The notes: generated by a model not told the origin, from the letters alone. A stretch of DNA of 64,000 nt from Candidatus Auribacterota bacterium (GCA_016932965.1 JAFGBW010000039.1:2140-66139); one strand, 5' to 3'; shown: positions 8,260 through 50,435, counted from the stretch's first letter. Numbers and translations: made by a program.

Positions 8260-9537
8260 ATGGATGTTTTTAAAATACAAGGCGGAGTACCTCTGAAAGG
8301 AGAAGTCACTGTTTCAGGTTCTAAGAATGCCGTGCTGCCTCTCATGTGCGCCGCTCTCATGGGAGATTCTCCTTCCATCATAAGAAATGTCCCCAGACTC
8401 AGAGACGTGTTCAGCATGATTGAAATCCTGAATTCACTTGGTGCTGAAGCAGAATTTATTGAGGATTCTGTGTTGAGGATTGATCCATATTCTGTCAATA
8501 AATATGAAGCACCATATGAGCAGGTCAAAAAAATGCGGGCTTCCATTTGTGTTTTAGGTCCTTTGTTTGGAAAATTCGGGGAAGCTCGGGTTTCCATGCC
8601 CGGAGGGTGTGTGATAGGCCCCAGGCCAGTGGATATCCATTTAAAGGGATTAAAAGCTTTGGGTGCGGAGATTACCATAGAACACGGGTATATCGTGGCC
8701 AAGGGAAAACCTGTAGGGGGAGAAATTTTTCTGGGAGGAAGATTCGGGTCTTCGGTTACAGCCACTGCCAATATTTTAATGGCCGCTGTATTGGCAAAAG
8801 GGAGAACGATCATCGAGTCTGCTGCCATGGAACCGGAATTGGGGGATTTGGCTCAATTTTTAAATAGGATGGGGGCAAAAATAACCGGACTCCATTCGCA
8901 CGTTCTTCAGATAGAGGGCGTCTCCCGTCTTCACGGGATTGAATATTCGGTCATTGCTGACCGCATCGAAGCAGGAACTTTCATGCTCAGTGCTGCCATC
9001 ACGCAAGGGGATGTTTTTGTCCGGAATGCGCAGGTTCGGCATTTGAGAGCTTTGATGGATAAACTGATTTTAAGCGGAATCCAGGTAAACGAGGAAAAAG
9101 ACGGGATCCGTGTGGTATCGGAATTAAGACCCAAATCTGCCGAAATCATCACTTTTTCTTTTCCGGGTTTCCCGACTGATCTCCAGGCCCAGATGATGGC
9201 TCTCATGTCTGTGGCTGATGGAATATCCGTGATTACGGAAAAAATTTATCCGGAAAGGTTCATGCATATTTCCGAACTCAACCGCATGGGAGCGGAAATT
9301 TCTTTGGAAGGCTCAACGGCTGTCATCAAAGGAGTTTCAACCCTCAGCGGGGCTCCTGTCATGGCGTCTGATTTGCGGGCTTCTGCCGGACTGGTTCTTG
9401 GGGCACTTGTCGCAAAAGGGGAAAGCCTGATCTATCGGGTTTATCATATCGACCGCGGATATGAGCAGATAGAAAAAAAATTGTCTGATTTGGGAGCGGT
9501 CATTATAAGAGAAAAAGAGGAAGAGCCATCAGTTTAG
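8260..9537 (+). CDS. murA: UDP-N-acetylglucosamine 1-carboxyvinyltransferase
   Basis: MDVFKIQGGVPLKGEVTVSGSKNAVLP is the canonical MurA N-terminus. The ORF track starts at 8170, but the first 30 codons are unrelated leader. An AGAAGG ribosome-binding site precedes the ATG at 8260. Confidence 0.9.
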   Translation: MDVFKIQGGVPLKGEVTVSGSKNAVLPLMCAALMGDSPSIIRNVPRLRDVFSMIEILNSLGAEAEFIEDSVLRIDPYSVNKYEAPYEQVKKMRASICVLGPLFGKFGEARVSMPGGCVIGPRPVDIHLKGLKALGAEITIEHGYIVAKGKPVGGEIFLGGRFGSSVTATANILMAAVLAKGRTIIESAAMEPELGDLAQFLNRMGAKITGLHSHVLQIEGVSRLHGIEYSVIADRIEAGTFMLSAAITQGDVFVRNAQVRHLRALMDKLILSGIQVNEEKDGIRVVSELRPKSAEIITFSFPGFPTDLQAQMMALMSVADGISVITEKIYPERFMHISELNRMGAEISLEGSTAVIKGVSTLSGAPVMASDLRASAGLVLGALVAKGESLIYRVYHIDRGYEQIEKKLSDLGAVIIREKEEEPSV

Positions 9538-11349
9538 CTGGAATATAATCAATCCAAATCCTTTTAGTTCTATTTCGTATTGATTTGATTTTTTCTTGCG
9601 GAGAATAGACCCTTTTCCAAGCCATTTTTCTTCATATGAATCGAGTCGTTTTATCCATTTACCGATAGGGAATTTCATGGTGCATTTATCCTGACGGTCG
9701 GAAAAATGAGCCACGATAAAAATTTGGCTTTTATTTTTAGAGCGGTGGATGGCCATGATGCTTTTATCTTCCATGAAATGCACGGATAAGGTTTTCTTGC
9801 TAAAATCAGACAAAACAGGAGTGACCCTGCGGAGCCGGATCAATTCCCTGTACCAGTTCAGTAAAATGCTGTGCGGTTTTTTCGTTCTTTTCTCCCACTG
9901 GAGAATACATTGTTCGAAAGTCCAAGTATCATAGGGATCAGGCGGGTCTTTTTTCCAATGGAAGGCTTCGAATTCTTTTTTTCTGCCATTGCGAACAGCC
10001 TCAATGAGATTTGGATCCTGATGACTGATGAAATATAAAAAGGGAGCGTTTTCCCCATATTCCTCTCCCATAAAGATAAGGGGTATAAAAGGGGAAAGAA
10101 GGGTCATGCCTGCGGCCAGTTTTAATCCGTCAAAATCAACTAGATTTGACAGCCGTTCACCGTTCATACGGTTCCCTGTCTGGTCATGGTTTTGCGAGAA
10201 AACGACAAAACGGCTGCCTGAAATTCCTGCAGCTGAGTTGCCGTGATTGCGTTTTCTAAATGGAGAATACTGCCCGGAATAGACGTAATTATCAGTCAGA
10301 CATTTTTCAAGTTGTGTCAGCTTGCCGAAATCCCCGTAGTAACCTGTTTTTTCATTTGTGAGAAGAGTATGGATGCAGTGATGAAAATCATCGTTCCATT
10401 GGCCGTGTATTCCGTATCCGTTGTTTTTTTGGTCCGTTACGAGGATTGCATTGTTCAGATCACTTTCTGCAATCAGATAAAACGGACGGCCCTGATCCTT
10501 GGAAAATTGGTCGGTTTTATCAGCCATTTCCCGGAGAATATGCTTTGCGCTGAAATCGTAGATGCCATGTACGGCATCCAGTCTCAATGCGTCGATATGA
10601 AAATATTTAAACCAGTACAGGACGTTGAAAATAAAATAATCCCTTACTTCCCGGCTGTATTCCCCGTCAAAGTTAATGGCCCAACCCCAGGGCGTTTTAT
10701 ACCGGTCGGTGAAATAGGGAGCGAAATCCCAGATGGTATTTCCTTCAGGCCCCAGGTGGTTGTAAACGACATCCAGAACCACGGCCATTTTTTTTTGATG
10801 ACAGAAATTGACCAGTTTTTTTAATCCTTGGGGTCCTCCGTAAGAATTTTGAACGGCAAAAGGATAAACTCCGTCATAACCCCAGTTTCTGCTGCCCGGA
10901 AATGATGAAACCGGCATGAGTTCAATGGCATTGACTCCGAGCTCCTTCAAATCGTCAATACGTTTGATGATGCCTTCGAAGGTTCCTTCTTTTGTGAACG
11001 TCCCGGTGTGAAGTTCGTACAGGACCATTTTTTCCAATGGAATCCCATGCCATCGGTCATCGGTCCAGTTGAAAGCGGAGTGATCGATGACTTCGGATGG
11101 GCCGTGAACGCCTTCCGGTTGAGAAAACGATAAGGGATCAGGGCGGTCTCTGTCCTTGTCGATGTTGTAGAAATATCTCAGTCCGCTGCAAGGGAAATCG
11201 AGCTTAGTGTGCCAGTAGCCGTTCTGATCTATTTCCATTGGGATGATTTTTTCCTCAGGAAAAACGAGATGCAGATCGATCGATTTTTTTAAGGGAGCAA
11301 ATACGCGAAAATGGATACAGTCATTTTTTTTGAATGCACCTGGTTCCAT
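9529..11349 (-). CDS. treZ: Malto-oligosyltrehalose trehalohydrolase-like GH13 glycoside hydrolase (CBM48 + alpha-amylase catalytic domain)
   Basis: N-terminal FRVFAP...DQNGYWH is a CBM48/E-set-like domain. GH13 motifs follow: DVVYNH, GFRLD-like ALRLDAVHGI, FSQNHDQ. Confidence 0.75.
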   Translation of the reverse strand: MEPGAFKKNDCIHFRVFAPLKKSIDLHLVFPEEKIIPMEIDQNGYWHTKLDFPCSGLRYFYNIDKDRDRPDPLSFSQPEGVHGPSEVIDHSAFNWTDDRWHGIPLEKMVLYELHTGTFTKEGTFEGIIKRIDDLKELGVNAIELMPVSSFPGSRNWGYDGVYPFAVQNSYGGPQGLKKLVNFCHQKKMAVVLDVVYNHLGPEGNTIWDFAPYFTDRYKTPWGWAINFDGEYSREVRDYFIFNVLYWFKYFHIDALRLDAVHGIYDFSAKHILREMADKTDQFSKDQGRPFYLIAESDLNNAILVTDQKNNGYGIHGQWNDDFHHCIHTLLTNEKTGYYGDFGKLTQLEKCLTDNYVYSGQYSPFRKRNHGNSAAGISGSRFVVFSQNHDQTGNRMNGERLSNLVDFDGLKLAAGMTLLSPFIPLIFMGEEYGENAPFLYFISHQDPNLIEAVRNGRKKEFEAFHWKKDPPDPYDTWTFEQCILQWEKRTKKPHSILLNWYRELIRLRRVTPVLSDFSKKTLSVHFMEDKSIMAIHRSKNKSQIFIVAHFSDRQDKCTMKFPIGKWIKRLDSYEEKWLGKGSILRKKKSNQYEIELKGFGLIIFQLN

Positions 11350-34687: not shown

Positions 34688-36733
34688 ATGATGAATCCTG
34701 ATTCTTTTGTTTCATTGATTGAAAAAGGGGAAATCTTCATACAGGATGGTTTCCTGCAGGAATTTCTTTCGTTGACCAGGGAACATCAGGTCTTATTTTT
34801 AAGGGAATTGATTCGTATTTCGGAACGAGACATCATCCCGGGCAGTTTCAGGACCTACGATTTGAGGATTGAAGCAGCCCGTCTTCCCAATCATGTCGTT
34901 TTTTATCTGGGGTTAAAAGCAGGGCCGATATTTAGAGAGATGACTCTGGGTCCGGACGGAAGATCGCTCATGATCGGAGTAGGCAGAGCGTTTGAAAAGG
35001 CCAGGCCTGGAAGTCATCGGATTCAACGCTGCTATATGAACGCATTGGCCCTGACCGGAGCCCGGGTCGTGGACCTGGGGGTCACAACCACCCCGGATAT
35101 TTATTTCGGACTCGCGTACCTGCTTCATCAGGGGCTCCACGTGGCGGTCAACGTGTCGGCCAGCCATAATCCGAAAAAAGACACCGGACTGAAACATTGT
35201 ATCCGGGACAGGGAAGGGTTCATTTACTCCATTTCCTCTGATCAGATGTCCCGGCTCAAAAATCATGTTCTGCCCGGGAAAAAAGAAAAAATACAGAGTG
35301 ATGCCTTTCTTTTAGACACGGATTTTCATTCGCTGGAAGTTTTTTCCGTTGATCATCAGATGCTTCCTGATGAAAATACCCTGAGCCGGTTTCATCATGC
35401 TTTCATTGTCGCCTTCGGACTCCTGGGGAAAAAAGCCATGAATGAAATGACCGTCCGTTATCAGGGTGATTTTTACCGGGTTCTTTCTTCACTGATTCCC
35501 CCGGAAAAACCGGATCAGTTGATCCCCGGATTGTTGAAATGGTTTGAAAAGCCGTCCGGGGAAATTCGGAAATGGCTGGAGTTGTCTCCGGATGTTTCTT
35601 TTCCCGGTGCCTGCGGGGAGAAGCCGTTGAAGGACATGGTTGTGGTTTTAGATCACGGCAGGGGGACGGCTTTCAGAACCATGGAAATTTATTCTGTGCT
35701 GGGCGCCCATGTCATCTGCGTGGATGAGGAAAGGGGGTATAATCCGTTGGAGTCGGGAAACCAGATGCACTGGAGAAAAGCGGTTCTGAAAGCTGCCGGA
35801 GATTTTCCCGGCAGGGAAGTCATCGGCCTGGCCCATGATGAAGATGGAGACCGTCTCGCGGTCATGCGTTCTGACGGGATCAACGTGGAAGGAGACCGGC
35901 TGCTCGTCATTTCCTGCAGGCAGATGGAACCCTCGGAAAAAAAACCGATTGTGATCACAGAAGTCAAATCGAGACCCGAGACAAGGAAGGCCCTGGAGGA
36001 TTCCGGCGTCGTTCCTGTGATTGCACCGACAGGGTTCGCCTTCATCAAAGAGACGGCCATTATACTGGAGAAGAAATTCAGGGAATTCCATGCCTGTTCG
36101 GAAAGCCCGGCGATCCTGAGACTTCACGGAAAGGAAATCAACCTGACAACAAACCTGCCTGTGCAGATGTGGGCGGAACTCAGCGGGCATTTCGGATTGA
36201 GCCAGGGATTGTCCTGGTTTTTTGATGATGCAACCCTCATGGCTGTGGATCTGCTTTTGGGTCTTGAAAAAAAAATTCAATCCGGAACCAGGCCCGGACG
36301 GGCGCTCATTTCTCTGGATGAAAGTTTTCCAAGGCATCCGAGTTCAGGTGAATTGAATATATTTCTCCGGACAACAGATCCGGAGTATGTTCCGACTTCC
36401 GAAGAAAAAGAGGCGTTTGTAGCCTTGTTTGCAGAACTTTTTTCCGCTGATCCGGCAGTGGATCATCTTGATCGTACGGATGGGGTTCAGATTTTTTTTA
36501 AAGACAGTCAGGGGGAATACGGCGGATGGATTCTGATTAGAAAATCCAACAATGAGGACAAGCTGGTTGTGGTGTCGTCAGCCCCCACAAAAGAACAACT
36601 GCATCATGTGGAACAATGCTTTCTGGAAAAAGCGCGTGCTCTTTCTCTTTCTCCTATTTCCGGGCTTGTGCTGACCCAAGAAGAAGAACAGGGAACAACC
36701 CGGAAAGCGGAACCGTATTTTTTGAATCGCTAA
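34688..36733 (+). CDS. alpha-D-phosphohexomutase superfamily protein (PGM/PMM-like, divergent, ~90-aa N-terminal extension)
   Basis: Active-site loop VNVSASHNPKKDTGLK (TASHNP-type phosphoserine), GVTTTPDIYF, Mg loop LAHDEDGDRLAV (DxDxDR). The start codon is 4 bp after the stop of the kinase-deaminase gene. Confidence 0.65.
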   Translation: MMNPDSFVSLIEKGEIFIQDGFLQEFLSLTREHQVLFLRELIRISERDIIPGSFRTYDLRIEAARLPNHVVFYLGLKAGPIFREMTLGPDGRSLMIGVGRAFEKARPGSHRIQRCYMNALALTGARVVDLGVTTTPDIYFGLAYLLHQGLHVAVNVSASHNPKKDTGLKHCIRDREGFIYSISSDQMSRLKNHVLPGKKEKIQSDAFLLDTDFHSLEVFSVDHQMLPDENTLSRFHHAFIVAFGLLGKKAMNEMTVRYQGDFYRVLSSLIPPEKPDQLIPGLLKWFEKPSGEIRKWLELSPDVSFPGACGEKPLKDMVVVLDHGRGTAFRTMEIYSVLGAHVICVDEERGYNPLESGNQMHWRKAVLKAAGDFPGREVIGLAHDEDGDRLAVMRSDGINVEGDRLLVISCRQMEPSEKKPIVITEVKSRPETRKALEDSGVVPVIAPTGFAFIKETAIILEKKFREFHACSESPAILRLHGKEINLTTNLPVQMWAELSGHFGLSQGLSWFFDDATLMAVDLLLGLEKKIQSGTRPGRALISLDESFPRHPSSGELNIFLRTTDPEYVPTSEEKEAFVALFAELFSADPAVDHLDRTDGVQIFFKDSQGEYGGWILIRKSNNEDKLVVVSSAPTKEQLHHVEQCFLEKARALSLSPISGLVLTQEEEQGTTRKAEPYFLNR

Positions 36734-37081: not shown

Positions 37082-37135
37082 CTATTTCTAACATAATGAA
37101 ATGAGTTTTTTGCAATAAGAGATTTGGAGGAAACA

Positions 37136-37885
37136 ATGACAAGGATCATGACAATTGGCAGTCGGGCAATCCGTGAAAGGGGACAATATTTTCATAATGA
37201 TGAAAATGAATTATCCAGGCCGGTCGCGCAATCAGCAGGCTCTCAACAAGACTCAGTGACAGGCGGCGGTGAGTCCATTGCTGAAAAAAAATCGTTTAGT
37301 CATCAGGAATTGATGGCCAAACAGGCTGAAGTAAGAAAAGAACTCATTAAGACCATGTTCAGGAAATATCAGGAATACCGGACCCTGCAGAAAGTGGCTT
37401 CTGATTATGGGTACACCCGTGAGCGTATCCGTCAGTATTTTGCCATAGGAAATAAACTGGGGATCATTGATTACAAGCCTTTCAACCGGCAGAACTTTCA
37501 GAGAATAAAAAATGAACTGACCAAGGATCGCCTGATCAAATATTTGAATGAAATGGGGACAATCCGCCGTATTTCCGAGGAATTGAATGTGGCAGTCAGT
37601 CATGTGAATCGCCTGATCAAATTATATAAATTGAATCTGTCCCAATTCAGGAGGAATTACCTCAAAACCGAAATATGCAAACAGTATTACACCATGGTGG
37701 AACAGCTGGGAGGCAAGCACCCATCCACTTACGATCTCTTGCTCATTAAAAACGGCCGGAATCTCTGGGCAAAAATTTCAAGGAATTGGGGAACCGTAAA
37801 AAAATTCCGGGAAGAGCAGCATATCCAGCTGGCAAGAAAATCAAGAAGAAGAAGAAAGAACAAGAATCTTCCTCCGGCTCAATGA
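37136..37885 (+). CDS. Twin helix-turn-helix protein with two sigma-70 region-4-like modules; putative transcriptional regulator
   Basis: RTLQKVASDYGYTRERIRQYFAIGNKL contains the sigma region 4.2 TRERIRQ hallmark. A second HTH is GTIRRISEELNVAVSHVNRLIKLYKL. Basic C-terminal tail. AT-rich gene. Start taken at the ATG after GGAGGA; the ORF track gives 37124. Confidence 0.5.
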   Translation: MTRIMTIGSRAIRERGQYFHNDENELSRPVAQSAGSQQDSVTGGGESIAEKKSFSHQELMAKQAEVRKELIKTMFRKYQEYRTLQKVASDYGYTRERIRQYFAIGNKLGIIDYKPFNRQNFQRIKNELTKDRLIKYLNEMGTIRRISEELNVAVSHVNRLIKLYKLNLSQFRRNYLKTEICKQYYTMVEQLGGKHPSTYDLLLIKNGRNLWAKISRNWGTVKKFREEQHIQLARKSRRRRKNKNLPPAQ

Positions 37886-37955
37886 GGTTATATTTTTCTC
37901 GAGATTTTTAAGTCTTGAGAGATAAATGATAATGAATTGAGAAATATTAAATTTG

Positions 37956-37993
37956 CCCTCTTTATCCCCTAGGTGATAAAGAGGGCTTTTTTA
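37956..37993 (+). terminator. Rho-independent terminator CCCTCTTTATC-CCCTAGGT-GATAAAGAGGG-CTTTTTTA
   Basis: 11-bp perfect stem, 8-nt loop and U-tract, 70 bp after the twin-HTH stop. Confidence 0.6.
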
Positions 37994-38091: not shown

Positions 38092-38120
38092 TTGACAAAG
38101 TAGATATTTACAAGTATTAT
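38092..38120 (+). promoter_or_regulatory. Near-consensus sigma70-type promoter TTGACA -17- TATTAT upstream of the GWD-like gene
   Basis: TTGACA at 38092-38097, 17-nt spacer, TATTAT at 38115-38120. The start codon is at 38162. Confidence 0.5.
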
Positions 38121-38161: not shown

Positions 38162-41100
38162 ATGATAGGTCACAAGAATTTTTTTATTTGCATGATTGCC
38201 TGGTTTTTATCGACCGGATTTTTATGCCAACCGGTTCAATGTTTTTCGCAATCTGTGGATTCTTCTTTTCTGGCTCCTTCGCATTCAGCCCAAGACCTGA
38301 CCCCCATCATGGTATTAGCCGGAAAAATGCAGGGAAATCAGCCTGTTATCTGGGATGTTTCTGCAACAGGAGTGAATAAAAAAGTAATCATTGTTGTTAA
38401 GAGCAGAGAGAGAGTGCATGTTCACTGGGGTAAAAGCCGCTACGGGAATTGGGAAATTCCCCCGGAAGCCATTTGGCCGGATCACACAACAAAGATGGAT
38501 GATAAGGCGGTGCAAACAGCCTTACAGCCTGTTTCGGATAATATCCGGGTTTTTTCAGTCACTATTCCCAACTCCATGGAATTCAATGAACTGGAATTTG
38601 TGCTTTTCTATCCTGACCGTCCCCCTCACAATCAGTGGGTTAAAGACGGAAACAGGAATTATAAAATTACCGTTAAGGACGATCCTGGACTGGAAGAAAT
38701 GGCTGGTGAAACCAAGAGTTGGATTCACACCATGATAGAAGGTGAAAGAGGGGAGCATGGCCGGAGTCTGATGCATAGAAATAAATTTGTTTGCGAATTG
38801 CTTGGCAGATTTCCTCATTGCAAAGAATTTTTCAGCACCCTGGCAGTGTACATGAGATACAACCGGCTTGGAGTCCTGCCGTGGCAGAGAGGTTATAATA
38901 CGACGCCAAGAGAAATGACTGCGAGCGTTGACAGATTGAATGAGACTATTTCAAGATTGATGATCACGGATTCTAAACATTATTCGATGGTCAGATTATT
39001 GATGAGTTTTTTAACCCTTGGCGGAGAAAATGGACAGCAAATCCGCGATAATATTTTGCATATTTTACAGAATAACGGGGTCCGGGGGACTACTTTTCTG
39101 GAACAATGGCACCAGAAATTACACAACAATGCCACCCCTGATGATATTGGAATCTGTGATGCTTATCTGGCTTTTTTAAGAAGTAATGGAGATAAAGGTA
39201 CATTTTATCGGGTCTTATGGGAGGGGTATGGAATTTCCAGGGAAAAACTGGCAAGTTATGAGAGACCCATTACGGTTGAGCCTGAGTTTTACGGATATGC
39301 CAAAGATGGTTTGATCCGTGATTTTGAAGCTTATCTGGAGCTCAACAGGAAAGTCCATTCCAGGGGTGATTTATTCCGGGCAAAAGCAAATGCTGAAAAA
39401 TATGATGCGCCAGGATTGAATAAGCCGCTGTGGGATTTTTTTACTTTGAAATATCAGGTGGAGACCTCACAGGTGGAGCAAGGCTGGGTTAAATTATTGG
39501 ACAAGCTGGTTGAAGTGCGGAGAGAGCTGCGGAGACTCATTTTTGCGGGAGGCGACTGGTGGTATCTGAGGGATTTAGTATTTTTGGATTTAAGTCTGGA
39601 AGAATATTCCAGGACCATTTCTGACAAAATCTCAGAACAAGTTAACGACCAGGAAATCATGTGGGAAGCAGCTAGGAATTTAAGCCTTCAACTTGAAAAT
39701 ATTGTACTCAGTTCTGATGCAGACGATTGGGATATGCTGGAAATCAATATCATAAAAAGAGAATGGGACAAGATTCAACAAGAGCCGATTAAAGACGAAC
39801 AATGGCATTTGCATTCCAAAGCTATTCTGGACCGTTTGCAGAGAGTCATTGGAGACCGTATTCAAAAGGAGACTGAACTGCTTCAGCCCAAGGCTGAACT
39901 ATTAGGAAACCAGGTCCTTGCAGAAAAAGACAAATGGGCCATTCCTCTTTTTAGCGAAGAACTGGTCCGGGGTTCCCCTCTATTTTCTATAGCCAATATT
40001 TTGAAACCCCTGCGCAAGGCAGCCAGACAAAAAGCTCTCTTGCCTCCCTGGGATGTCATTGTGCCTGGCAGAGTTTCTGCAGAAGTGAGGAAAGCAAAAT
40101 CATTGAAAGAAATTTTGGCAGGAATACAACCGGGAGACAGGATCATTGCTGTTGTCAAAGACCTGGATGGAAGCGAAGACATTCCTCCCCAGATAGCAGG
40201 GATTATCAGCCAAAGGGAAGTGGATATCACATCGCATCTGGCTGTCAGGGCAAGGAATTTAAAAGTTCCCTTTGTTTTCATTGATTCGGAAGAAGAATTT
40301 CAGACCGTTTATCAAAATGACCGTCCTGTCAAACTTCATGTTTTTGAAGGCATGACAAAACCCTGGCAGGTTTATACAGGGGATTTAAGCATGGTCAGTA
40401 TCCCTGCCGAAATTCCTGAAATCACCATCCCTTCTGTTGATCTGACAGCAGAACCTGCCTGTCTAAAAATACAGGAATTCACAATGGATAAGGTCGGGCC
40501 AAAAGGTTCCCAGATAAAGCAATTGATGGAAGACGTGAGTGAGAAGAAAGACGTGACAATTCCTAATTCAGTTGATGTGCCGTATGGAGTTTATCAGGCA
40601 GTGCTTAAAGATAAAAACAATTTAGAAATAGCACAACAAATACAAGAGTTAATTGCAAGAGCGGACGCTGAAACTGCAAGAGATGCCGCCAAGCAGTATA
40701 TTGCGGAGATAGAGAGATTGACTAAAACATTAGTGATACCTGATGAGATTTTAAAGCCTATTTTAGATGCGATAAAACAAGAGATAGGAGAGGATAAAAT
40801 TCTGATGGTGCGTTCTTCAGCTAACGGGGAGGATCTGGAAAAATACGCCGGCGCAGGTTTATATGAATCTTATTTTAATGTTTCATTGGATAAGGTGGAG
40901 CAACATATCAAATGGGTGTGGGCTTCCAAATGGACGGAACGCGCGTACTGGAGCAGGCGCGATATGAAAATTGACCATGACCAGATCCATGTTTCAGCGC
41001 TTATTCAGGAATGTTTTCATTTTGATTATTCCTTTGTGATTCATACGGTCAATCCGGTTAACAATGATCCGGATGAAGTCATGATTGAGGTTGCCCAGGG

Positions 41101-41512
41101 GCTGGGGGAAGCCATCGTTGCCAATTATCCGGGGAGCGCCTATCGTTTCATTTATAATAAAAAAACACATGAAGTCAGGCGCATCGCCTTTGCCAGTAAA
41201 AGTCTGAAATGCATTATCAAAGACGGCCAACTGCAATTGGTTTCAGTTGACTACAGCGATGATTTCCTGGCAGGACCAAAAGAGCAATGGGAGGAAGTGA
41301 TAAGGTCTATCGGTGAAGCAGGATGTTTGATTGAAGAAAAAAGGGGAGGGAATGCCCAGGATATCGAAGGAGGGTATTTTTCCAGGTATGCAGACAAGCC
41401 GGATATCCTGGGTTTGGTCCAGACGAGGGACCAGATGATTGTAGAGATTGTAACGGAGAAGCCTGTTGGACCAGCGGCGGAACCACCGGACGCAGTTTTG
41501 ACTGCGGCATGA
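38162..41512 (+). CDS. alpha-glucan,water dikinase (GWD)-like protein: N-terminal hydrophobic export/anchor segment, CBM-like domain, large unknown middle region, phosphohistidine domain, C-terminal PEP-synthase/PPDK-type nucleotide-binding domain
   Basis: The His-domain motif DITSHLAVRARNLKVPFVF (nt ~40222-40280) resembles the plant GWD catalytic-His motif SHVSVRARN. The nucleotide-binding domain shows MVRSSANGEDLEKYAGAGLYESYFNV, VWASKWTERAYWSRRDMKIDHDQIHVSALIQE and VAQGLGEAIV (PPDK_N-like, nt ~40500-41330). The His domain precedes the ATP domain, as in GWD and unlike PEP synthase. Confidence 0.75.
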   Translation: MIGHKNFFICMIAWFLSTGFLCQPVQCFSQSVDSSFLAPSHSAQDLTPIMVLAGKMQGNQPVIWDVSATGVNKKVIIVVKSRERVHVHWGKSRYGNWEIPPEAIWPDHTTKMDDKAVQTALQPVSDNIRVFSVTIPNSMEFNELEFVLFYPDRPPHNQWVKDGNRNYKITVKDDPGLEEMAGETKSWIHTMIEGERGEHGRSLMHRNKFVCELLGRFPHCKEFFSTLAVYMRYNRLGVLPWQRGYNTTPREMTASVDRLNETISRLMITDSKHYSMVRLLMSFLTLGGENGQQIRDNILHILQNNGVRGTTFLEQWHQKLHNNATPDDIGICDAYLAFLRSNGDKGTFYRVLWEGYGISREKLASYERPITVEPEFYGYAKDGLIRDFEAYLELNRKVHSRGDLFRAKANAEKYDAPGLNKPLWDFFTLKYQVETSQVEQGWVKLLDKLVEVRRELRRLIFAGGDWWYLRDLVFLDLSLEEYSRTISDKISEQVNDQEIMWEAARNLSLQLENIVLSSDADDWDMLEINIIKREWDKIQQEPIKDEQWHLHSKAILDRLQRVIGDRIQKETELLQPKAELLGNQVLAEKDKWAIPLFSEELVRGSPLFSIANILKPLRKAARQKALLPPWDVIVPGRVSAEVRKAKSLKEILAGIQPGDRIIAVVKDLDGSEDIPPQIAGIISQREVDITSHLAVRARNLKVPFVFIDSEEEFQTVYQNDRPVKLHVFEGMTKPWQVYTGDLSMVSIPAEIPEITIPSVDLTAEPACLKIQEFTMDKVGPKGSQIKQLMEDVSEKKDVTIPNSVDVPYGVYQAVLKDKNNLEIAQQIQELIARADAETARDAAKQYIAEIERLTKTLVIPDEILKPILDAIKQEIGEDKILMVRSSANGEDLEKYAGAGLYESYFNVSLDKVEQHIKWVWASKWTERAYWSRRDMKIDHDQIHVSALIQECFHFDYSFVIHTVNPVNNDPDEVMIEVAQGLGEAIVANYPGSAYRFIYNKKTHEVRRIAFASKSLKCIIKDGQLQLVSVDYSDDFLAGPKEQWEEVIRSIGEAGCLIEEKRGGNAQDIEGGYFSRYADKPDILGLVQTRDQMIVEIVTEKPVGPAAEPPDAVLTAA

Positions 41513-41524
41513 TGAGAATGTGTC

Positions 41525-43204
41525 ATGGATAATAGCAAACCAATTCAGAAACGATTGAATCTCCCGGTTTTTCTTTTAGGAAAAGCTGGAAGAATCAGGG
41601 GTCAATCAATTTTTTTAATCCTATCCGGTTTCATCAGCAGTCTTCTTATTTTTTTCCATACACCGGCGTTTGCTGACCTCTGTTTATTCTGTCTTGCCCC
41701 ACAAGAGCAGACTTCAAGAGAAATGGCGGTTTTTACTTCCATTTCGAAAGAGCTGAACAGGGAAGGGCAAGTGGCTTTCAGAAGCATTCAAAGACCAGGC
41801 GAGGTCGATCTGATTGCTGCGGTGAAGTCAAGTGAGCCCGTCTATCTCCACTGGGGAGTTTCCCGTTTCGGGAAATGGGAGATGCCGCCTGAAGACATCC
41901 GGCCTTTGGATTCAATACCTAATCAAAAAGGGACATCTCTTCAAACCCGGATGCAGTCTTTATCGGGTGATATCCGGTTTGTAAAAATAACTGTGCCTGA
42001 ACATGTTGATTGCAGCGAAATCGCTTTTGTTTTTTATTATCCGGAACGGGCGAAGGAGCAACAGTGGGTTAAAGACGGAGACAAGGACTATTATCTGGCA
42101 GATATTCACACATTCCCGGAATTAATTAGCTGCAATGAACAGACAAGGACCCTGGAATTCAACAAACATGAACTGAAAAAATGGATCATTGGATTGATTG
42201 AAAGAGGACTTCTTCCCATGCTGTTTTTTGATTTTGATGATACGTTGAATCTGGGGTATGGCGGATATATGCCTGACGAATCCATTGGGGCTTTGGATCA
42301 GCTTGTCAATGCCGGCGGGATCATTGCCATTCATTCAGGGATAGATTTATTATGGGGAAGCCAGAAAATTCTCCGTTTGACGCAATCCAGATTTCCGTTT
42401 CATTTTCTGGTCTTGAGCACGGGTAAAGATATTTTTGCCTGGAGTCATCAGCATAAGGCCTATTTAAAACTTCCATTCTCAGGAGACAATAAGAGCGATG
42501 CTTTAATGAAACTGGCCTCTTTTTTAGGAATTCTGCCTCATCAAATGGGGTATTGCTGTGATTTTCCCGGAAGCGGTGATAAACAGGACGGGATTGATGA
42601 TCCGACATTATCTTCAAACATCGGTTTCATAGCCAATGTAAGTCCGTTTGGAAGAATGATGAAACTTCCCGCTGAATCTTCAACCAGACTGATTCAGCCT
42701 GATGATAACCCTTTGACAAGGCAGGCTAAAGGCGCCTGTAATTACATGGCTGCGGCAAGCGATGTGTTGCGACAATATGGTCAAACACCGAATCAAGCCA
42801 TCAGTGATATCAACACCAAGTTACTGGCCGCTGGTTTTAAACTGCCGGTCCTGGAACCCCGTGTGGATCAATATACTGTCTGGACCAAGGACAATCAGGT
42901 GTCAGCTATCCCTGAAGGACATGTTCTGCGTGTTGAGACTGACAAACCCGGAATGGTCTATGCCGGAAAAGAAGGAATCAGCGGCTGGGAACGAACGTAC
43001 GCTATTCCCCTAAGATTAGAAAGCGGTAAATGGATAGCTGATATTTTAGACCCTGAAGTCAATACCTTTACTTTTATCGAGAACGATCCTCTTGATGAAA
43101 AAAAGGTCGGGTGGCTAGGAAAAAAAGGCGCAAATTATTATTTTTCCAGATACGCTGTTCCATCCGGGACGTCTCATGGGTCCCAAGCTTCGTTTTCAGC
43201 CTGA
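41525..43204 (+). CDS. CBM-like domain + HAD-superfamily phosphatase-like protein with N-terminal signal peptide
   Basis: The N-terminal hydrophobic segment ends in AFA|DL (AxA signal-peptidase site). Residues ~93-195 are about 45% identical to residues ~74-175 of the preceding dikinase (LHWGVSRFGKWEMPPEDI...QWVKDGDKDY vs VHWGKSRYGNWEIPPEAI...QWVKDGNRNY). The HAD motif I FFDFDDTL is at nt ~42225-42245. Confidence 0.6.
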   Translation: MDNSKPIQKRLNLPVFLLGKAGRIRGQSIFLILSGFISSLLIFFHTPAFADLCLFCLAPQEQTSREMAVFTSISKELNREGQVAFRSIQRPGEVDLIAAVKSSEPVYLHWGVSRFGKWEMPPEDIRPLDSIPNQKGTSLQTRMQSLSGDIRFVKITVPEHVDCSEIAFVFYYPERAKEQQWVKDGDKDYYLADIHTFPELISCNEQTRTLEFNKHELKKWIIGLIERGLLPMLFFDFDDTLNLGYGGYMPDESIGALDQLVNAGGIIAIHSGIDLLWGSQKILRLTQSRFPFHFLVLSTGKDIFAWSHQHKAYLKLPFSGDNKSDALMKLASFLGILPHQMGYCCDFPGSGDKQDGIDDPTLSSNIGFIANVSPFGRMMKLPAESSTRLIQPDDNPLTRQAKGACNYMAAASDVLRQYGQTPNQAISDINTKLLAAGFKLPVLEPRVDQYTVWTKDNQVSAIPEGHVLRVETDKPGMVYAGKEGISGWERTYAIPLRLESGKWIADILDPEVNTFTFIENDPLDEKKVGWLGKKGANYYFSRYAVPSGTSHGSQASFSA

Positions 43205-43456
43205 AAATATCCCAAGTTTTTCTAACATACGATGTTTTGTTTTGACAAAACATCGTACACCTTTGTTAAGAAATTCAACACCAGTACAAATGCGAACAGC
43301 ATTTTTCGTTTGAATTCGATAATTTTCTGGTCATTAAGAATATATAACTTATTGCTAGTGAACAGGATATAAAAATGTCTATCTCAGATATTGCTCTTGG
43401 CACAAATATTGTTTCTTTCTGGTCTGCATTGGAAATAACAACTAAGGAAACCAGCC

Positions 43457-48125: not shown

Positions 48126-50435
48126 TTACCGATATAAATACAGGGCTTTTGTTGATTGGTCGAATATCAGAAGTTCTCCGTCTCCGAAGGCGGCTAAAGC
48201 CCCTGATCTGCTGCCTATCTCTTTTTTGATAGAAATTTCTCTTTTCAGGTTACCAGAAGGGTCATATTTGAATACCACTCTGCTGGAGGGGTCTAAAATA
48301 TAAATGTTTCCGAACAGATCCACGCTCAGGTGTTTTGCCTTTGAAAAAGAACCCTGGATGATCTTCATTTCCTTGGAGGAGGGAGAATAGATGAAAACCG
48401 CTTTTCTGGATTTGTCCAGGAGATAGACCAGCCCCTTTACATCCACATAAAAGGATTCGCAATTAAGCCATTCATTGTTTTTTATCGGCGGGATTTTAGG
48501 GGAAAGATCTTCCGTCTTGATCTCTGAACCCAGCTTGGAAAAGATGGTCAGGGTAGCGGGTGTTTTCAAAAGATAGGTTTGCTTCCAGCCGTCTACACCG
48601 ATGCCAATGATTTTTTCCTTGGAATTGAGGGGAAAGGCAATATCCCTGATCGGACGTCCCTGAAAGTCATATACCCTGATCTTGTTGGTTCCCTTATTGA
48701 CCAGATACACGTTTTCTTCTTCGTTCTCAGCCTGGGTATCCACTGCCATGGCAAGGAGATTTCCGTCGTTCTTGAAGCTTTGATCCACCCATCCGAAACA
48801 ATTCAGCCTTTTGATCATCGAATTTTTGCTTTGGAAATAGATGTTACCGAGACGGCCGGCGGCAATGACAGTGGAATAATAAGGATCTTCCTGCAGAAAT
48901 TGGGCTTTGAGCCTTCCTTTTGAATCAATCAATAGAACAGGGCCGGGTTTTTCCGTGGTCACGATCAATTCTCCATCCGGGTCTAAAGAGATGGTTCGAA
49001 GGGGATTTTCTTCCGTTCCCTGAACCGGAGCTATTTTTACTGCGGCTTTATCCCGTATATCCAGCACCGTCAGATATCCTACTGCTTCGGACCTTGAAAG
49101 GGTTTTTAGATTGCCTGAAAGGATGATTTTTCGCGAAATGTCATCCAAGGTCAGGTCCCGGTATGTAAAACGTTCGCTCAGAGAAAAACTGTCTTTCAGC
49201 TGAAATCGTGAATCATAGGCTTTGATTTTCAAGTCTCCTTCGTCTAGGACATACAGGGTGCCGTCTTGAGAGAGTTCCATGGCAATGGGGTGAATCCATT
49301 GGTTTTCTGTTTGCCCTTTATGCCCGATGCTGCCGGTTAAATAGCCGTTAGCATTGAAAAGAAATATCCTGCAGAATACATCATCCAGAATATATATGGT
49401 TCCATTGCTTCCTATTTCCAGATCACTTGGATTAACGATTTCGACCCCGTCTTCTGATTGGGATAATTTTTGAGTTTGGCAGAGGAGTTTTCCATCCAAG
49501 GTGAATTTGAATACGGTTTTCTGTTCCTTGTCCAATACGAAAACATAACCTGAATCCTTATCGAACTTGACTTTCAGCCCGTTTTCAAAATAGCCTTTCA
49601 AAAGTTTTTTCAGCACTCCGCGGGAAGAAAATATTTTTACATTATTTTTTTCAAGAACCAGGATCGTCCCTTCAGGATCCACGAGGCAGTCCTGGGCAGA
49701 AGACCGCAGATGGTTTTTAAAATAAGTGTTTTTAAACTCATACAAATCCTTTGAGCTTTTATTTTGAACCGTCACGATTGCATCATGGGAAGCTCGTCCG
49801 CCGAAGGCATCCACGGCAGTCAGAGTCAGTTTGACGGTTCCGTTTTCTTCAGGAGCGATATAATAGTTGAAACCGCTTCGTGTCTTGGATTTCATCCAGT
49901 GTCCTTTGTCTGATTTCCATTCGATGGTAAAGGAGTCATTTTCCGCATCCGTAGCGGTCACTTGCGCCCATATTTTTGTTCCCTTGGGCACGGAAGTGTT
50001 GGACAATTTAAGCGACAGGAATTTAGGGGGCCGGTTGGAAACCCATTGTATTTTGCATCCCCTTTTGATGGCCAAGGGTGTGATTTCTGAAGCGATCTCG
50101 AATGAGGATGAACCGGAAAAAGGGACTACCCGGATCTCTCCTACTTTAAGCCATTCGTTCACGATGGCCACTTCCGTTCCGGGAAGCGTGACGACCCGGT
50201 TGGGGGAATAAACGCAGGCGGCCAGTTCTTTTTCAGCGTTTTTGATCTGATCCAGACGGCATACGACCTTGTTTTCCTTTCGTTCCACGATTTCGCCGTC
50301 GAATTGAAAGGATTCTCCGGCAAGTAAAGTGGGCAGACTCGATAGGAGGATAAAACAGTTCCCGATAAAACGAGTGAGGGCCCTTTTATTTGTCCGTTTC
50401 ATGACAAATATCGCGTTGTTCATGTTTGGATTCAT
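48126..50435 (-). CDS. Secreted NHL-repeat beta-propeller protein
   Basis: Signal peptide. Recurring NHL-type blades (GTIYILDD, GTLYVLDEGD, GLVYLLDKS, GNIYILDPS). Size 769 aa. Confidence 0.6.
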   Translation of the reverse strand: MNPNMNNAIFVMKRTNKRALTRFIGNCFILLSSLPTLLAGESFQFDGEIVERKENKVVCRLDQIKNAEKELAACVYSPNRVVTLPGTEVAIVNEWLKVGEIRVVPFSGSSSFEIASEITPLAIKRGCKIQWVSNRPPKFLSLKLSNTSVPKGTKIWAQVTATDAENDSFTIEWKSDKGHWMKSKTRSGFNYYIAPEENGTVKLTLTAVDAFGGRASHDAIVTVQNKSSKDLYEFKNTYFKNHLRSSAQDCLVDPEGTILVLEKNNVKIFSSRGVLKKLLKGYFENGLKVKFDKDSGYVFVLDKEQKTVFKFTLDGKLLCQTQKLSQSEDGVEIVNPSDLEIGSNGTIYILDDVFCRIFLFNANGYLTGSIGHKGQTENQWIHPIAMELSQDGTLYVLDEGDLKIKAYDSRFQLKDSFSLSERFTYRDLTLDDISRKIILSGNLKTLSRSEAVGYLTVLDIRDKAAVKIAPVQGTEENPLRTISLDPDGELIVTTEKPGPVLLIDSKGRLKAQFLQEDPYYSTVIAAGRLGNIYFQSKNSMIKRLNCFGWVDQSFKNDGNLLAMAVDTQAENEEENVYLVNKGTNKIRVYDFQGRPIRDIAFPLNSKEKIIGIGVDGWKQTYLLKTPATLTIFSKLGSEIKTEDLSPKIPPIKNNEWLNCESFYVDVKGLVYLLDKSRKAVFIYSPSSKEMKIIQGSFSKAKHLSVDLFGNIYILDPSSRVVFKYDPSGNLKREISIKKEIGSRSGALAAFGDGELLIFDQSTKALYLYR

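What the first reader, a model, noticed from the sequence alone, without database searches (positions are those of the whole stretch)
38162..43204. Putative bacterial glucan phosphorylation/dephosphorylation module: GWD-like dikinase plus HAD phosphatase sharing a CBM-like domain
The 1116-aa ORF has the plant alpha-glucan,water-dikinase domain order rather than the PEP-synthase order.
- Its phosphohistidine motif is DITSHLAVRARNLKVPFVF. From memory, this is close to the SHVSVRARN motif around the catalytic His of potato/Arabidopsis GWD.
- That motif lies N-terminal to a PPDK_N/PEP-synthase-type ATP-binding domain (MVRSSANGEDLEKYAGAGLYESYFNV; VWASKWTERAYW; VAQGLGEAIV).
- The next ORF, 13 bp downstream, carries HAD motif I (FFDFDDTL).
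- Its residues ~93-195 are about 45% identical to residues ~74-175 of the dikinase. The shared motifs are HWG..R.G.WE.PPE.I and QWVKDG..Y, which look like a CBM20/CBM45-type starch-binding module.

A kinase and a phosphatase targeted by the same carbohydrate-binding domain suggest reversible phosphorylation of an alpha-glucan, as in plant starch GWD/SEX4 or Lafora-type glycogen phosphate metabolism. To my knowledge this has not been characterised in bacteria. A treZ-like gene at 9.5 kb shows the organism handles alpha-glucans.
Basis: partly seen in the sequence, partly recalled or inferred. Interest (0 to 1): 0.85.

Follow-up and report, generated by a model that had tools for sequence, protein, structure and literature searches.

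The report
Bacterial starch-type dikinase with tethered phosphatase
An uncultured bacterium has a two-gene operon encoding a divergent relative of the plant starch-phosphorylating enzyme GWD and a new kind of HAD-fold phosphatase with the same starch-binding module, which suggests (but does not prove) a plant-like phosphorylate/dephosphorylate cycle on a storage glucan built with a different phosphatase.

Summary
ORF A (38162-41512, 1116 aa) is a true alpha-glucan,water dikinase (GWD) family member. It has a CBM45-type Ig domain, the GWD-specific helical central domain (E 1e-64 to the potato GWD1 crystal chain), a GWD phosphohistidine domain with His692, and a C-terminal ATP domain.

Bacterial GWDs are not new. 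At least 295 species genomes encode one, usually inside glycogen gene clusters and followed by a second dikinase. JGI already names them and one paper mentions them. I found no biochemical characterisation.

What is unusual here:
- The HAD partner: only 19 relatives among 1.84 billion representatives, and none of 80 other GWD loci has one.
- A shared N-terminal signal-like leader on A, its paralogue and B.
- A collinear (PEP-synthase-like) ATP-domain order, seen in 2 of 120 homologues.

B's substrate and the compartment are unproven, and an exported ATP-dependent dikinase would be paradoxical.

The parts
38092..38120 (+). Sigma-70-like promoter candidate (TTGACA-17-TATTAT, 11/12) about 40 nt upstream of ORF A
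   Evidence: Consensus scan. Not significant on its own: 19 sites found against 15.7 expected in the region.
38162..41512 (+). ORF A, 1116 aa: divergent alpha-glucan,water dikinase (GWD) family protein. NCBI annotates it as hypothetical protein JW774_01715, starting at Met11.
38162..38308 (+). ORF A leader (aa 1-49): hydrophobic signal-like segment (FFICMIAWFLSTGFL) followed by an 'FLAPSHS' stretch shared with paralogue P0002 and, in part, with ORF B
   Evidence: Absent from the other 118 homologues.
38366..38671 (+). ORF A CBM45-type domain (Pfam Ig_N_CWD1, aa 69-170), single copy
   Evidence: E 3.6e-16. Invariant H88-W89-G90, W97, W105, W159.
38705..40030 (+). ORF A GWD central helical domain (aa 182-623), the proposed glucan/acceptor side. 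It includes FSEELVRG (E599, E600, R603), which aligns with potato 'FTEEIIRA'.
   Evidence: 9ha9_A/9qvi_A, E 1.4e-64. (E 1e-76 to 1e-84 to bacterial GWDs). (34% identity to potato).
40049..40318 (+). ORF A phosphohistidine domain (Pfam GWD1_pHisD, aa 630-719). Catalytic His692 is the codon at 40235-40237.
   Evidence: E 4.4e-15. H692 is invariant.
40490..41434 (+). ORF A nucleotide-binding ATP-grasp domain (Pfam PPDK_N, aa 777-1091), collinear with the PPDK_N profile. The RSSANGEDL..AGAGLY element (aa 882-907, nt 40805-40882) lies before VWASKW, unlike in canonical GWDs.
41525..43204 (+). ORF B, 559 aa: leader + CBM45 + HAD phosphatase + Ig-like C-module. NCBI annotates it as hypothetical protein JW774_01720.
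41525..41680 (+). ORF B leader (aa 1-52): six K/R residues, a hydrophobic core (IFLILSGFISSLLIF), then 'AFA|D' and 'CLAP'. Predicted signal peptide or N-in signal anchor.
   Evidence: Hydropathy and the positive-inside rule only; no dedicated predictor was available.
41768..42097 (+). ORF B CBM45-type domain (Pfam Ig_N_CWD1, aa 82-191), closest to ORF A's copy
   Evidence: E 5.4e-12.. (95.5 bits to A, 67 or less to all others).
42200..42844 (+). ORF B HAD-superfamily phosphatase core (about aa 226-440). Motif I: D236, D238, T240. Motif II: S271-G272. Motif III: K323. Motif IV: D346 and D358-D359. Only about 50 residues (three short strands) lie between motifs II and III.
   Evidence: Pfam Hydrolase_3 only at E 0.011-0.044.
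42872..43159 (+). ORF B C-terminal Ig-like beta-sandwich module (about aa 450-545). It also occurs on its own fused to repetitive helical proteins. Function unknown.
43228..43257 (+). Terminator-like hairpin (13-bp stem) 24 nt after ORF B's stop. A second hairpin at 37955-37986 closes the upstream gene, so A-B looks like a two-gene transcription unit.

Best explanation
ORFs A and B form a two-gene operon that targets one alpha-glucan with opposing activities.

**ORF A.** A is a divergent member of the alpha-glucan,water dikinase family. By analogy with potato and Arabidopsis GWD, its C-terminal ATP-grasp domain binds ATP. His692 on the swivelling phosphohistidine domain takes the beta-phosphate (the gamma-phosphate goes to water). 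The His domain then swings to the helical central domain, and the phosphate is passed to a glucosyl hydroxyl of a glucan held by the adjacent CBM45. C6 is the likely position, because the CBM45 and central domain are GWD-type.

**ORF B.** B is brought to the same polymer by a CBM45 copied from the A lineage. It uses a HAD aspartyl-phosphatase core (nucleophile D236, acid/base D238, Mg2+ ligands D346 and D358/D359) to remove phosphate monoesters from the glucan or from phospho-oligosaccharides released from it. Its small cap would leave the site open to a large substrate.

**The pair.** Together they would do what GWD plus SEX4/LSF2 do in plastids: open up ordered glucan for amylolysis and then clear the phosphate that blocks exo-enzymes.

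**Shown and inferred.** Family membership of A, the HAD fold and intact motifs of B, the shared CBM45, and the operon layout are shown. The acceptor of A, the substrate of B, the regiospecificity and the cellular compartment are inferred.
For: **ORF A is a GWD-family member**
- Three GWD-type Pfam domains in GWD order.
- Central domain at E 1.4e-64 to potato GWD1 chains 9ha9/9qvi.
- H692 is invariant across bacterial homologues. E599, E600 and R603 align with the potato 'TEEIIR'. I take these, by position, to be the E900/E901/R904 that the structure paper proposes near the catalytic His (PMC13553574).

**The family is tied to alpha-glucan metabolism in bacteria**
- Neighbours in 80 GWD loci: GH13 amylase in 41, GlgA in 26, GH57 enzymes in about 19, GlgB in 6, MalQ in 5 (Pfam-annotated examples).
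- The window itself encodes TreZ and a phosphohexomutase-like protein.

**ORF B is a HAD phosphatase**
- HAD motifs I-IV are conserved across its family.
- AF2 model pLDDT 82.8, pTM 0.84.

**The two are coupled**
- 12-nt spacer, bracketed by promoter- and terminator-like elements.
- B's CBM45 is most similar to A's.
- The leader is shared by A, P0002 and B.

**One independent link between this HAD family and glucans**
- P0127 fuses it to a GH15 glucoamylase domain (E 1.3e-33) and a weak AMPK1_CBM match.

**Established knowledge**
- HAD enzymes with small or absent caps tend to act on macromolecular substrates.
Against: - No biochemistry exists for any bacterial GWD that I could find.
- B is a singleton. 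No orthologue with CBM45 was found among 15 billion proteins, and 0 of 80 other GWD loci have a B-like gene. The pairing therefore has no comparative support.
- Standalone relatives of B's HAD domain lie in unrelated neighbourhoods.
- Its best structural matches are small-molecule sugar-phosphate phosphatases.
- A, P0002 and B have signal-like leaders. If A is exported it has no ATP supply.
- A differs from canonical GWDs in the order of the ATP-domain elements. It is only 30-34% identical to them, so specificity may differ.
Confidence: 0.48

Rival explanations
1. A is a glucan dikinase as above, but B is a small-molecule sugar-phosphate phosphatase tethered to the granule. It would dephosphorylate soluble products such as phospho-maltooligosaccharides, glucose-6-P, glucose-3-P, maltose-1-P or trehalose-6-P released during breakdown, and not the polymer itself.
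For: - The best fold matches are Cof-type IIB sugar phosphatases, T6PP, SPP and MpgP.
- The only sequence hint is Hydrolase_3.
- TreZ in the window shows a trehalose route from glucans.
- Standalone family members have no CBM45 and no glucan context.
Against: - Two flanking beta-sandwich domains, including a CBM45, are an odd investment for an enzyme of soluble metabolites.
- The cap that normally encloses small substrates in IIB enzymes is reduced to about 50 residues.
Confidence: 0.25
2. The leaders are genuine export signals. The module works outside the cytoplasm on exogenous, naturally phosphorylated starch from algal or plant detritus, or inside a host or prey cell where ATP exists. B would strip phosphate so that amylases can proceed. 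A would be inactive in the periplasm, or would act only where ATP is available.
For: - Hydrophobic N-terminal segments occur on A, P0002 and B only.
- B has six K/R residues before the core and an AFA|D site.
- P0127, the GH15-HAD giant, starts with what by eye looks like a classical signal peptide.
- Related Auribacterota MAGs are reported to encode signal-peptide-bearing glycoside hydrolases (PMC9324843).
Against: - Established knowledge: there is no ATP in the bacterial periplasm, which is why enzymes such as LpxT use other phosphate donors.
- A and P0002 keep all catalytic residues, which implies that they work where ATP is present.
- Internal Met codons at the canonical GWD start (A M50, P0002 M49, B M67) allow leaderless forms.
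- No dedicated signal-peptide predictor was available.
Confidence: 0.12
3. B is not a hydrolase of phosphoglucan at all. It would be a HAD-type phosphomutase or phosphotransferase, or a non-catalytic or regulatory glucan-binding partner of A.
For: - HAD IIB includes phosphomannomutases and an atypical alpha-phosphoglucomutase, which are among the fold hits (4bnd, 6i5x).
- A phosphohexomutase-like gene lies 1.4 kb upstream.
Against: - All four catalytic motifs are conserved across a family with only 25-40% identity, which argues for catalysis.
- HAD mutases need a large cap that closes over the bisphosphate intermediate, and B lacks one.
Confidence: 0.08
4. A is not a glucan dikinase but a PEP synthase, rifampin-phosphotransferase or other small-molecule dikinase that happens to carry an Ig-like domain.
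For: - NCBIfam's best hits are PEP synthase and Rph models.
- A's ATP domain is collinear with PPDK_N, as in PEP synthase.
Against: - Those hits cover only aa 771-1091 and reach 119 bits against cutoffs of 598-999.
- There is no PEP/pyruvate TIM-barrel domain, and the domain order is reversed.
- The 440-aa central domain matches only GWD (E 1e-64).
Confidence: 0.03

Closest known systems
Plant/algal alpha-glucan,water dikinase GWD1 (SEX1/R1; EC 2.7.9.4), e.g. potato StGWD1
   Same: - Same domain order: CBM45, helical central domain, phosphohistidine domain, C-terminal ATP domain (PMC13553574).
- The central domain is 34% identical to potato.
- The catalytic His motif and the Glu-Glu-x-x-Arg helix that aligns with potato 'TEEIIR' are conserved.
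   Different: - One CBM45 instead of two.
- An N-terminal hydrophobic leader instead of a plastid transit peptide.
- The RSS..GED..AGAGLY nucleotide-binding element lies before VWASKW instead of about 100 residues after it.
- Bacterial host, and activity untested.
Canonical bacterial GWD homologues (Nitrospirota, Desulfobacterota, Verrucomicrobiota, Planctomycetota; JGI 'alpha-glucan,water dikinase')
   Same: The same three Pfam domains and central domain, with central-domain E values of 1e-76 to 1e-84.
   Different: - Only 30-34% identity overall.
- They lack the leader and have the plant-like 'late' motif order (113-118 of 118).
- They sit in glycogen clusters, and in 53 of 80 loci are followed by a second dikinase and not by a phosphatase.
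- They are closer to potato GWD1 (median 39%) than A is (34%).
Phosphoglucan,water dikinase PWD/GWD3 (EC 2.7.9.5) and the bacterial second dikinase (AP_endonuc_2 + GWD1_pHisD + PPDK_N)
   Same: - Collinear PPDK_N domain with the early RSSA.GEDL motif.
- A's ATP and His domains score slightly higher against the bacterial second dikinase than against canonical GWDs (149 against 129 bits; 52.8 against 47.4).
   Different: - A has CBM45 and a GWD-type central domain, with only E 1e-5 to the second dikinase's central region.
- The resemblance of the second dikinase to plant PWD rests on my memory of the plant sequence and was not tested.
Glucan phosphatases SEX4, LSF2 (plants) and laforin (animals)
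   Same: The proposed role is the same: a phosphatase joined to a starch/glycogen-binding module that removes GWD/PWD-type phosphate esters.
   Different: - Those enzymes are dual-specificity (Cx5R cysteine) phosphatases with CBM48 or CBM20.
- B has no Cx5R and no DSP domain. It has a HAD aspartyl-phosphatase fold with CBM45.
- I found no paper describing a HAD-type glucan phosphatase: the only two papers containing both terms are on plant tyrosine phosphatases and on a PGP phosphatase.
HAD subfamily IIB (Cof-type) sugar phosphatases, e.g. BT4131, YidA, TM0651, trehalose-6-P and sucrose-6-P phosphatases
   Different: - Sequence similarity is below the thresholds of Pfam, NCBIfam and PDB sequence searches.
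- The cap is much smaller.
- The core is flanked by CBM45 and an Ig-like module.
- The family is very rare (19 representatives).

Membership tests
Alpha-glucan,water dikinase (GWD) family | Phosphohistidine domain N-terminal to a C-terminal PPDK_N-type nucleotide-binding domain, with no PEP/pyruvate TIM barrel | tested here: met
   Pfam GWD1_pHisD at aa 630-719 and PPDK_N at aa 777-1091; no PEP-utilizers_C
Alpha-glucan,water dikinase (GWD) family | GWD-specific all-helical central domain between the CBM and the His domain | tested here: met
   phmmer E 1.4e-64 over aa 182-623 to potato GWD1 central-domain chains 9ha9_A and 9qvi_A
Alpha-glucan,water dikinase (GWD) family | Catalytic histidine in the conserved S-H-[LV]-[AS]-[VI]-R-A-R-N context | tested here: met
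   H692 in SHLAVRARN, invariant in 10 aligned homologues
Alpha-glucan,water dikinase (GWD) family | N-terminal CBM45 starch-binding module(s) | tested here: met
   Pfam Ig_N_CWD1, E 3.6e-16, one copy. That this Pfam family equals CAZy CBM45 is inferred from position (PMC13553574).
Alpha-glucan,water dikinase (GWD) family | Canonical GWD1 ordering of the nucleotide-binding domain (FRSDSNGEDL..AGAGLYDS element after VWASKW) | tested here: not met
   In A and P0002 the element precedes VWASKW, and PPDK_N matches end to end. Canonical GWDs match only profile positions ~133-213 in their best stretch.
Alpha-glucan,water dikinase (GWD) family | Transfer of the ATP beta-phosphate to C6 of glucosyl residues of an alpha-glucan | not testable with these tools
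   Needs an enzyme assay
HAD (haloacid dehalogenase-like) phosphatase superfamily | Motifs I (DxDxT/V), II (S/T), III (K/R), IV (acidic DD or DxxxD) | tested here: met
   B residues D236/D238/T240, S271, K323, D346 and D358/D359, conserved across the family alignment
HAD (haloacid dehalogenase-like) phosphatase superfamily | Rossmannoid HAD core fold | tested here: met
HAD (haloacid dehalogenase-like) phosphatase superfamily | Significant match to a curated HAD sequence model | tested here: not met
   Pfam Hydrolase_3 at only E 0.011-0.044, below the cutoff. NCBIfam: none. PDB profile search: E 0.2.
Glucan phosphatases (SEX4/LSF2/laforin type) | Dual-specificity phosphatase domain with a Cx5R catalytic loop | tested here: not met
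   No DSP Pfam hit and no Cx5R in B
Glucan phosphatases (SEX4/LSF2/laforin type) | Carbohydrate-binding module, or surface sites, that target starch or glycogen | tested here: met
   CBM45-type domain in B, E 5.4e-12. Actual binding was not tested.
Glucan phosphatases (SEX4/LSF2/laforin type) | Release of phosphate from C6- or C3-phosphorylated alpha-glucan | not testable with these tools
   Needs an enzyme assay
PEP synthase / rifampin phosphotransferase | Full-length match above the family cutoff, with N-terminal ATP domain, then His domain, then C-terminal substrate domain | tested here: not met
   NCBIfam hits of 119 bits or less against cutoffs of 598-999, covering only aa 771-1091. The domain order is reversed.

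The most novel reading that the evidence does not exclude
B is the founding example of a third, independently evolved class of phosphoglucan phosphatase: HAD aspartyl chemistry instead of the cysteine-based DSP chemistry of SEX4, LSF2 and laforin. It would have been recruited to the dikinase by copying the dikinase's leader and CBM45. A and P0002 would represent a GWD lineage that keeps the ancestral PEP-synthase-like order of the ATP domain, making it a link between PEP-synthase/PWD-type and canonical GWD-type enzymes. The shared leader would target the whole phosphorylation cycle to a membrane-associated or extracytoplasmic site.
Probability: 0.3. Interest if true: 0.8.

Novelty: new variant of a known kind. 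Interest (0 to 1): 0.6.

Why it matters
Reversible glucan phosphorylation is treated as a hallmark of starch metabolism in plastid-bearing eukaryotes. GWD is said to occur only in starch accumulators (PMC6260743). The agent that phosphorylates glycogen in animals is still unknown (PMC13011383).

A bacterial operon that pairs a GWD-family dikinase with a CBM45-tethered phosphatase of a different fold would matter in three ways:
- It would give a compact two-protein system for testing whether bacteria phosphorylate their storage glucans, and why.
- It would add a new enzyme class for removing starch phosphate, which is relevant to starch processing.
- Together with the widespread GWD plus second-dikinase clusters seen here in anaerobic bacteria, it bears on where the starch phosphorylation machinery came from.

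The collinear ATP domain offers a natural experiment on how the GWD nucleotide-binding domain was rearranged.

Tried and rejected
- **L001's 369-aa gene.** I tested whether the unannotated gene after the second dikinase in the deltaproteobacterial cluster is a B homologue. It is not (BLASTP E 0.3; poor fit in the alignment).
- **Upstream gene of P0122.** I tested whether standalone B-family member P0122 is translationally coupled to a dikinase. The upstream partial gene has no similarity to A and no Pfam domain.
- **Contexts of P0123 and P0124.** These were uninformative.
- **Contig look-ups.** Exact-sequence look-ups for P0001 and P0002 found nothing on record. I could not see what follows the paralogue.
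- **Third word-indexed search.** Run with the HAD family profile, it returned mostly C-module-only proteins and not full-length relatives. It showed the module is autonomous but was little use for deepening the HAD alignment.
- **Start-codon choice.** Shine-Dalgarno scoring cannot discriminate, because SD signals are weak at all genes tested.
- **RNA elements.** Rfam and tRNA scans of the window found none.
- **Recent horizontal transfer.** Composition gives no sign of it: GC 0.436 and 0.443 against 0.439 for the window.
- **Literature.** Searches for a characterised prokaryotic GWD or a HAD-type glucan phosphatase found none. The library lacks most subscription-journal papers, so absence is not proof.

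Full report
**Observation.** The window is from a *Candidatus* Aureabacteria (Auribacterota) MAG. ORF A and ORF B are 100% identical to NCBI hypothetical proteins JW774_01715 and JW774_01720 on a 69,978-bp contig. ORF A (38162-41512, +, 1116 aa) and ORF B (41525-43204, +, 559 aa) exist as described and are separated by 12 nt. A terminator-like hairpin closes the upstream gene at 37955-37986. An 11/12 sigma-70-like promoter lies at 38092-38120, and another hairpin follows B at 43228-43257. A-B therefore looks like a self-contained two-gene unit. GC content matches the rest of the window. No RNA genes or Rfam elements occur in the window.

**ORF A is a GWD-family protein.** Pfam finds three domains, in this order:

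| Domain | Residues | E-value |
|---|---|---|
| Ig_N_CWD1 (GWD1 N-terminal domain, corresponding to CBM45) | 69-170 | 3.6e-16 |
| GWD1_pHisD | 630-719 | 4.4e-15 |
| PPDK_N | 777-1091 | 2.9e-38 |

- The 440 residues between the first two domains match the crystallised central domain of potato GWD1 (9ha9, 9qvi) at E 1.4e-64. That domain was described in 2026 as a 20-helix module facing the catalytic histidine (PMC13553574).
- His692 sits in SHLAVRARN and is invariant. The FSEELVRG helix (E599, E600, R603) aligns with potato 'FTEEIIRA'. By position this appears to be the helix holding the residues that paper proposes as catalytic helpers.
- NCBIfam has no GWD model. Its PEP-synthase and rifampin-phosphotransferase models hit only the ATP domain, at 119 bits or less against cutoffs of 598-999.

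**Bacterial GWDs in general.**
- The word-indexed search gave 392 homologues, all with the same three Pfam domains. They come from Desulfobacterales, Nitrospirae, Gemmataceae, Chloroflexota and others, and JGI labels many 'alpha-glucan,water dikinase'.
- A scan of one genome per species found 295 genomes with a relative. Nearly all are MAGs of Nitrospirota/Thermodesulfovibrionales, Desulfobacterota, Verrucomicrobiota, Planctomycetota (including Scalindua and Gemmataceae), Acidobacteriota and Nitrospinota.
- I clustered the ORFs of 80 loci. By sequence features and the Pfam-annotated examples, the recurrent neighbours are:

| Neighbour | Loci (of 80) |
|---|---|
| GH13 amylase | 41 |
| GlgA | 26 |
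| DUF4912 | 15 |
| GH57 enzymes | about 19 |
| GlgB | 6 |
| MalQ | 5 |

- In 53 of 80 loci the GWD gene is followed directly by a second dikinase, typically with AP_endonuc_2 + GWD1_pHisD + PPDK_N.

The family is thus firmly embedded in alpha-glucan metabolism in bacteria. [quoted passage not shown] I found no characterised prokaryotic enzyme.

**How ORF A differs from the rest.** A and a paralogue from the same MAG (P0002, 54% identity) are only 30-34% identical to all other homologues.
- *Central domain.* It is GWD-type (E 1e-76 to 1e-84). It is 34% identical to potato, whereas canonical bacterial GWDs have a median of 39%. A and P0002 therefore form an outlying branch.
- *CBM45 copy number.* A has one copy. 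Others have one or two.
- *ATP-domain order.* In A and P0002 the RSSANGEDL..AGAGLY element precedes VWASKW, as in PEP synthase and the second bacterial dikinase. In 113 of 118 other homologues it follows VWASKW by about 100 residues, and the remaining five also have it late. Consistent with this, A, P0002 and the second dikinase match PPDK_N end to end. Canonical GWDs match only profile positions ~133-213 in their best stretch. A's ATP and His domains score slightly higher against the second dikinase than against canonical GWDs.
- *Leader.* Only A and P0002 have a 45-60-residue N-terminal extension with a hydrophobic core.

**ORF B.** Curated sequence models recognise only its CBM45-type domain (aa 82-191, E 5.4e-12). 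PDB sequence search finds nothing.
- *Rarity.* An exhaustive phmmer search of 1.84 billion representatives with aa 197-559 found just 19 proteins. These are standalone proteins of about 340-360 aa, fragments, and one 2432-aa protein.
- *HAD motifs.* Their alignment shows all four motifs conserved: hhhDLDDT, NTGA/HSG, NKG and DFPG..GIDD. In B these are D236/D238/T240, S271-G272, K323, and D346 with D358/D359.
- *Cap.* Only about 50 residues forming three short strands lie between motifs II and III, so the cap is much smaller than in IIB enzymes. By established HAD structure-function knowledge, a small cap suits large substrates. This is an inference.

**Evidence that A and B work together.**
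- The operon layout.
- B's CBM45 is closest to A's: 95.5 bits, against 67 or less for 117 other GWDs.
- The alignment of B with P0002 extends into the leader's 'CLAP' stretch. Leader plus CBM45 therefore behaves as a shared targeting cassette on A, P0002 and B.
- One other member of the HAD family (P0127) is fused to a GH15 glucoamylase domain (E 1.3e-33) and a weak AMPK1_CBM match.
- The window also encodes a bona fide TreZ and an unusual 681-aa phosphohexomutase-like protein 1.4 kb upstream.

**Evidence against, or missing.**
- The pairing is a singleton. No other B-like protein with CBM45 exists in the collections searched, and none of 80 GWD loci has a B-like HAD or C-module.
- Standalone HAD relatives are not near glucan genes.
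- B's nearest structural relatives act on small sugar phosphates.

**The leader problem.** B has six K/R residues before its hydrophobic core and an AFA|D site. A and P0002 have a short, weakly basic N-terminus and acidic residues after the core. By the positive-inside rule all three would be exported or anchored with their bulk outside the cytoplasm. That leaves a dikinase without ATP. All three also have an internal Met where canonical GWDs start (A M50, P0002 M49, B M67), so leaderless forms are conceivable. Ribosome-binding signals are too weak genome-wide to decide. The leader is conserved in frame between A and P0002, which suggests it is translated. This remains unexplained and lowers my confidence in a simple cytoplasmic cycle.

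**Verdict.**
The architecture is as proposed, and B's HAD nature is now backed by fold and motif evidence. The substrates and the compartment are inferred.
- The dikinase is a new, divergent member of a family that is already annotated, though uncharacterised, in bacteria.
- The CBM45-HAD partner and the shared leader are new. I rate the whole as a new variant of a known kind of system (GWD plus glucan phosphatase). Interest is about 0.6, and confidence in the full kinase/phosphatase-on-one-glucan model is about 0.48.

Noticed in passing
L001:11482-15153 and 53 of loci L010-L089 (for example L021:3031-6864, L082:10936-14415): Canonical bacterial GWD genes are usually followed directly by a second dikinase of about 1150-1220 aa with an N-terminal xylose-isomerase-like TIM barrel (AP_endonuc_2), a GWD-type phosphohistidine domain and a collinear PPDK_N domain. 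From memory its C-terminal half resembles plant PWD. A GWD plus PWD-like gene pair in glycogen clusters of anaerobic bacteria seems unreported.
   Followed up: partly
L002:11056-13212, L003:6839-8995: The same AP_endonuc_2 TIM-barrel domain is fused to a GH13 amylase (hDGE_amylase/Alpha-amylase) directly after GWD. The TIM barrel therefore travels with different glucan enzymes in these clusters. Its role is unknown.
   Followed up: no
L017:16783-17619 and 14 other GWD loci; L002:13376-14212: DUF4912 proteins (about 278 aa) recur in 15 of 80 bacterial GWD neighbourhoods, next to GH57 branching-type enzymes. They are candidate uncharacterised glucan-cluster components.
   Followed up: no
window 34688-36733 (+): A 681-aa protein 1.4 kb upstream of ORF A gives only weak, split matches to phosphoglucomutase/phosphomannomutase domains I, III and IV. 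NCBIfam gives at most 98.7 bits against cutoffs above 400. It is about 230 residues longer than normal enzymes of this family, so it is an atypical phosphohexomutase.
   Followed up: partly
window 9529-11349 (-): Bona fide malto-oligosyltrehalose trehalohydrolase TreZ (TIGR02402, 715.6 bits against a cutoff of 538.8) with CBM48. It shows a glucan-to-trehalose route in this organism. No TreY was seen in the window.
   Followed up: partly
P0127 (2432 aa, metagenomic; not in the window): A giant protein that starts with what by eye looks like a signal peptide. It combines a kinase-like region, a GH15 glucoamylase domain, a CBM48-like segment and what by eye look like two tandem [HAD + C-module] units of the ORF B family, the first apparently degenerate.
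   Followed up: partly
P0134, P0140-P0154 (metagenomic); loci L090-L093: The ~95-aa C-terminal module of ORF B also ends a family of 200-310-aa proteins made of repeated 'ATEAATQQVKQLAEQA'-type helical units. These are encoded next to general-stress genes (DUF2382, YflT, YtxH, DUF4383).
   Followed up: partly
window 37124-37885 (+): The gene between the phosphohexomutase-like ORF and ORF A encodes a 253-aa protein with only a sigma-70 region-4-like/HTH match at the Pfam threshold. It is followed by a strong terminator-like hairpin (37955-37986). It may be a local regulator.
   Followed up: no
window 48126-50435 (-): A 769-aa protein with a weak match to the NHL-repeat PEP-CTERM protein ScyF (50.9 bits against a cutoff of 350). 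If real, this would hint at an exosortase/PEP-CTERM sorting system in this organism.
   Followed up: no
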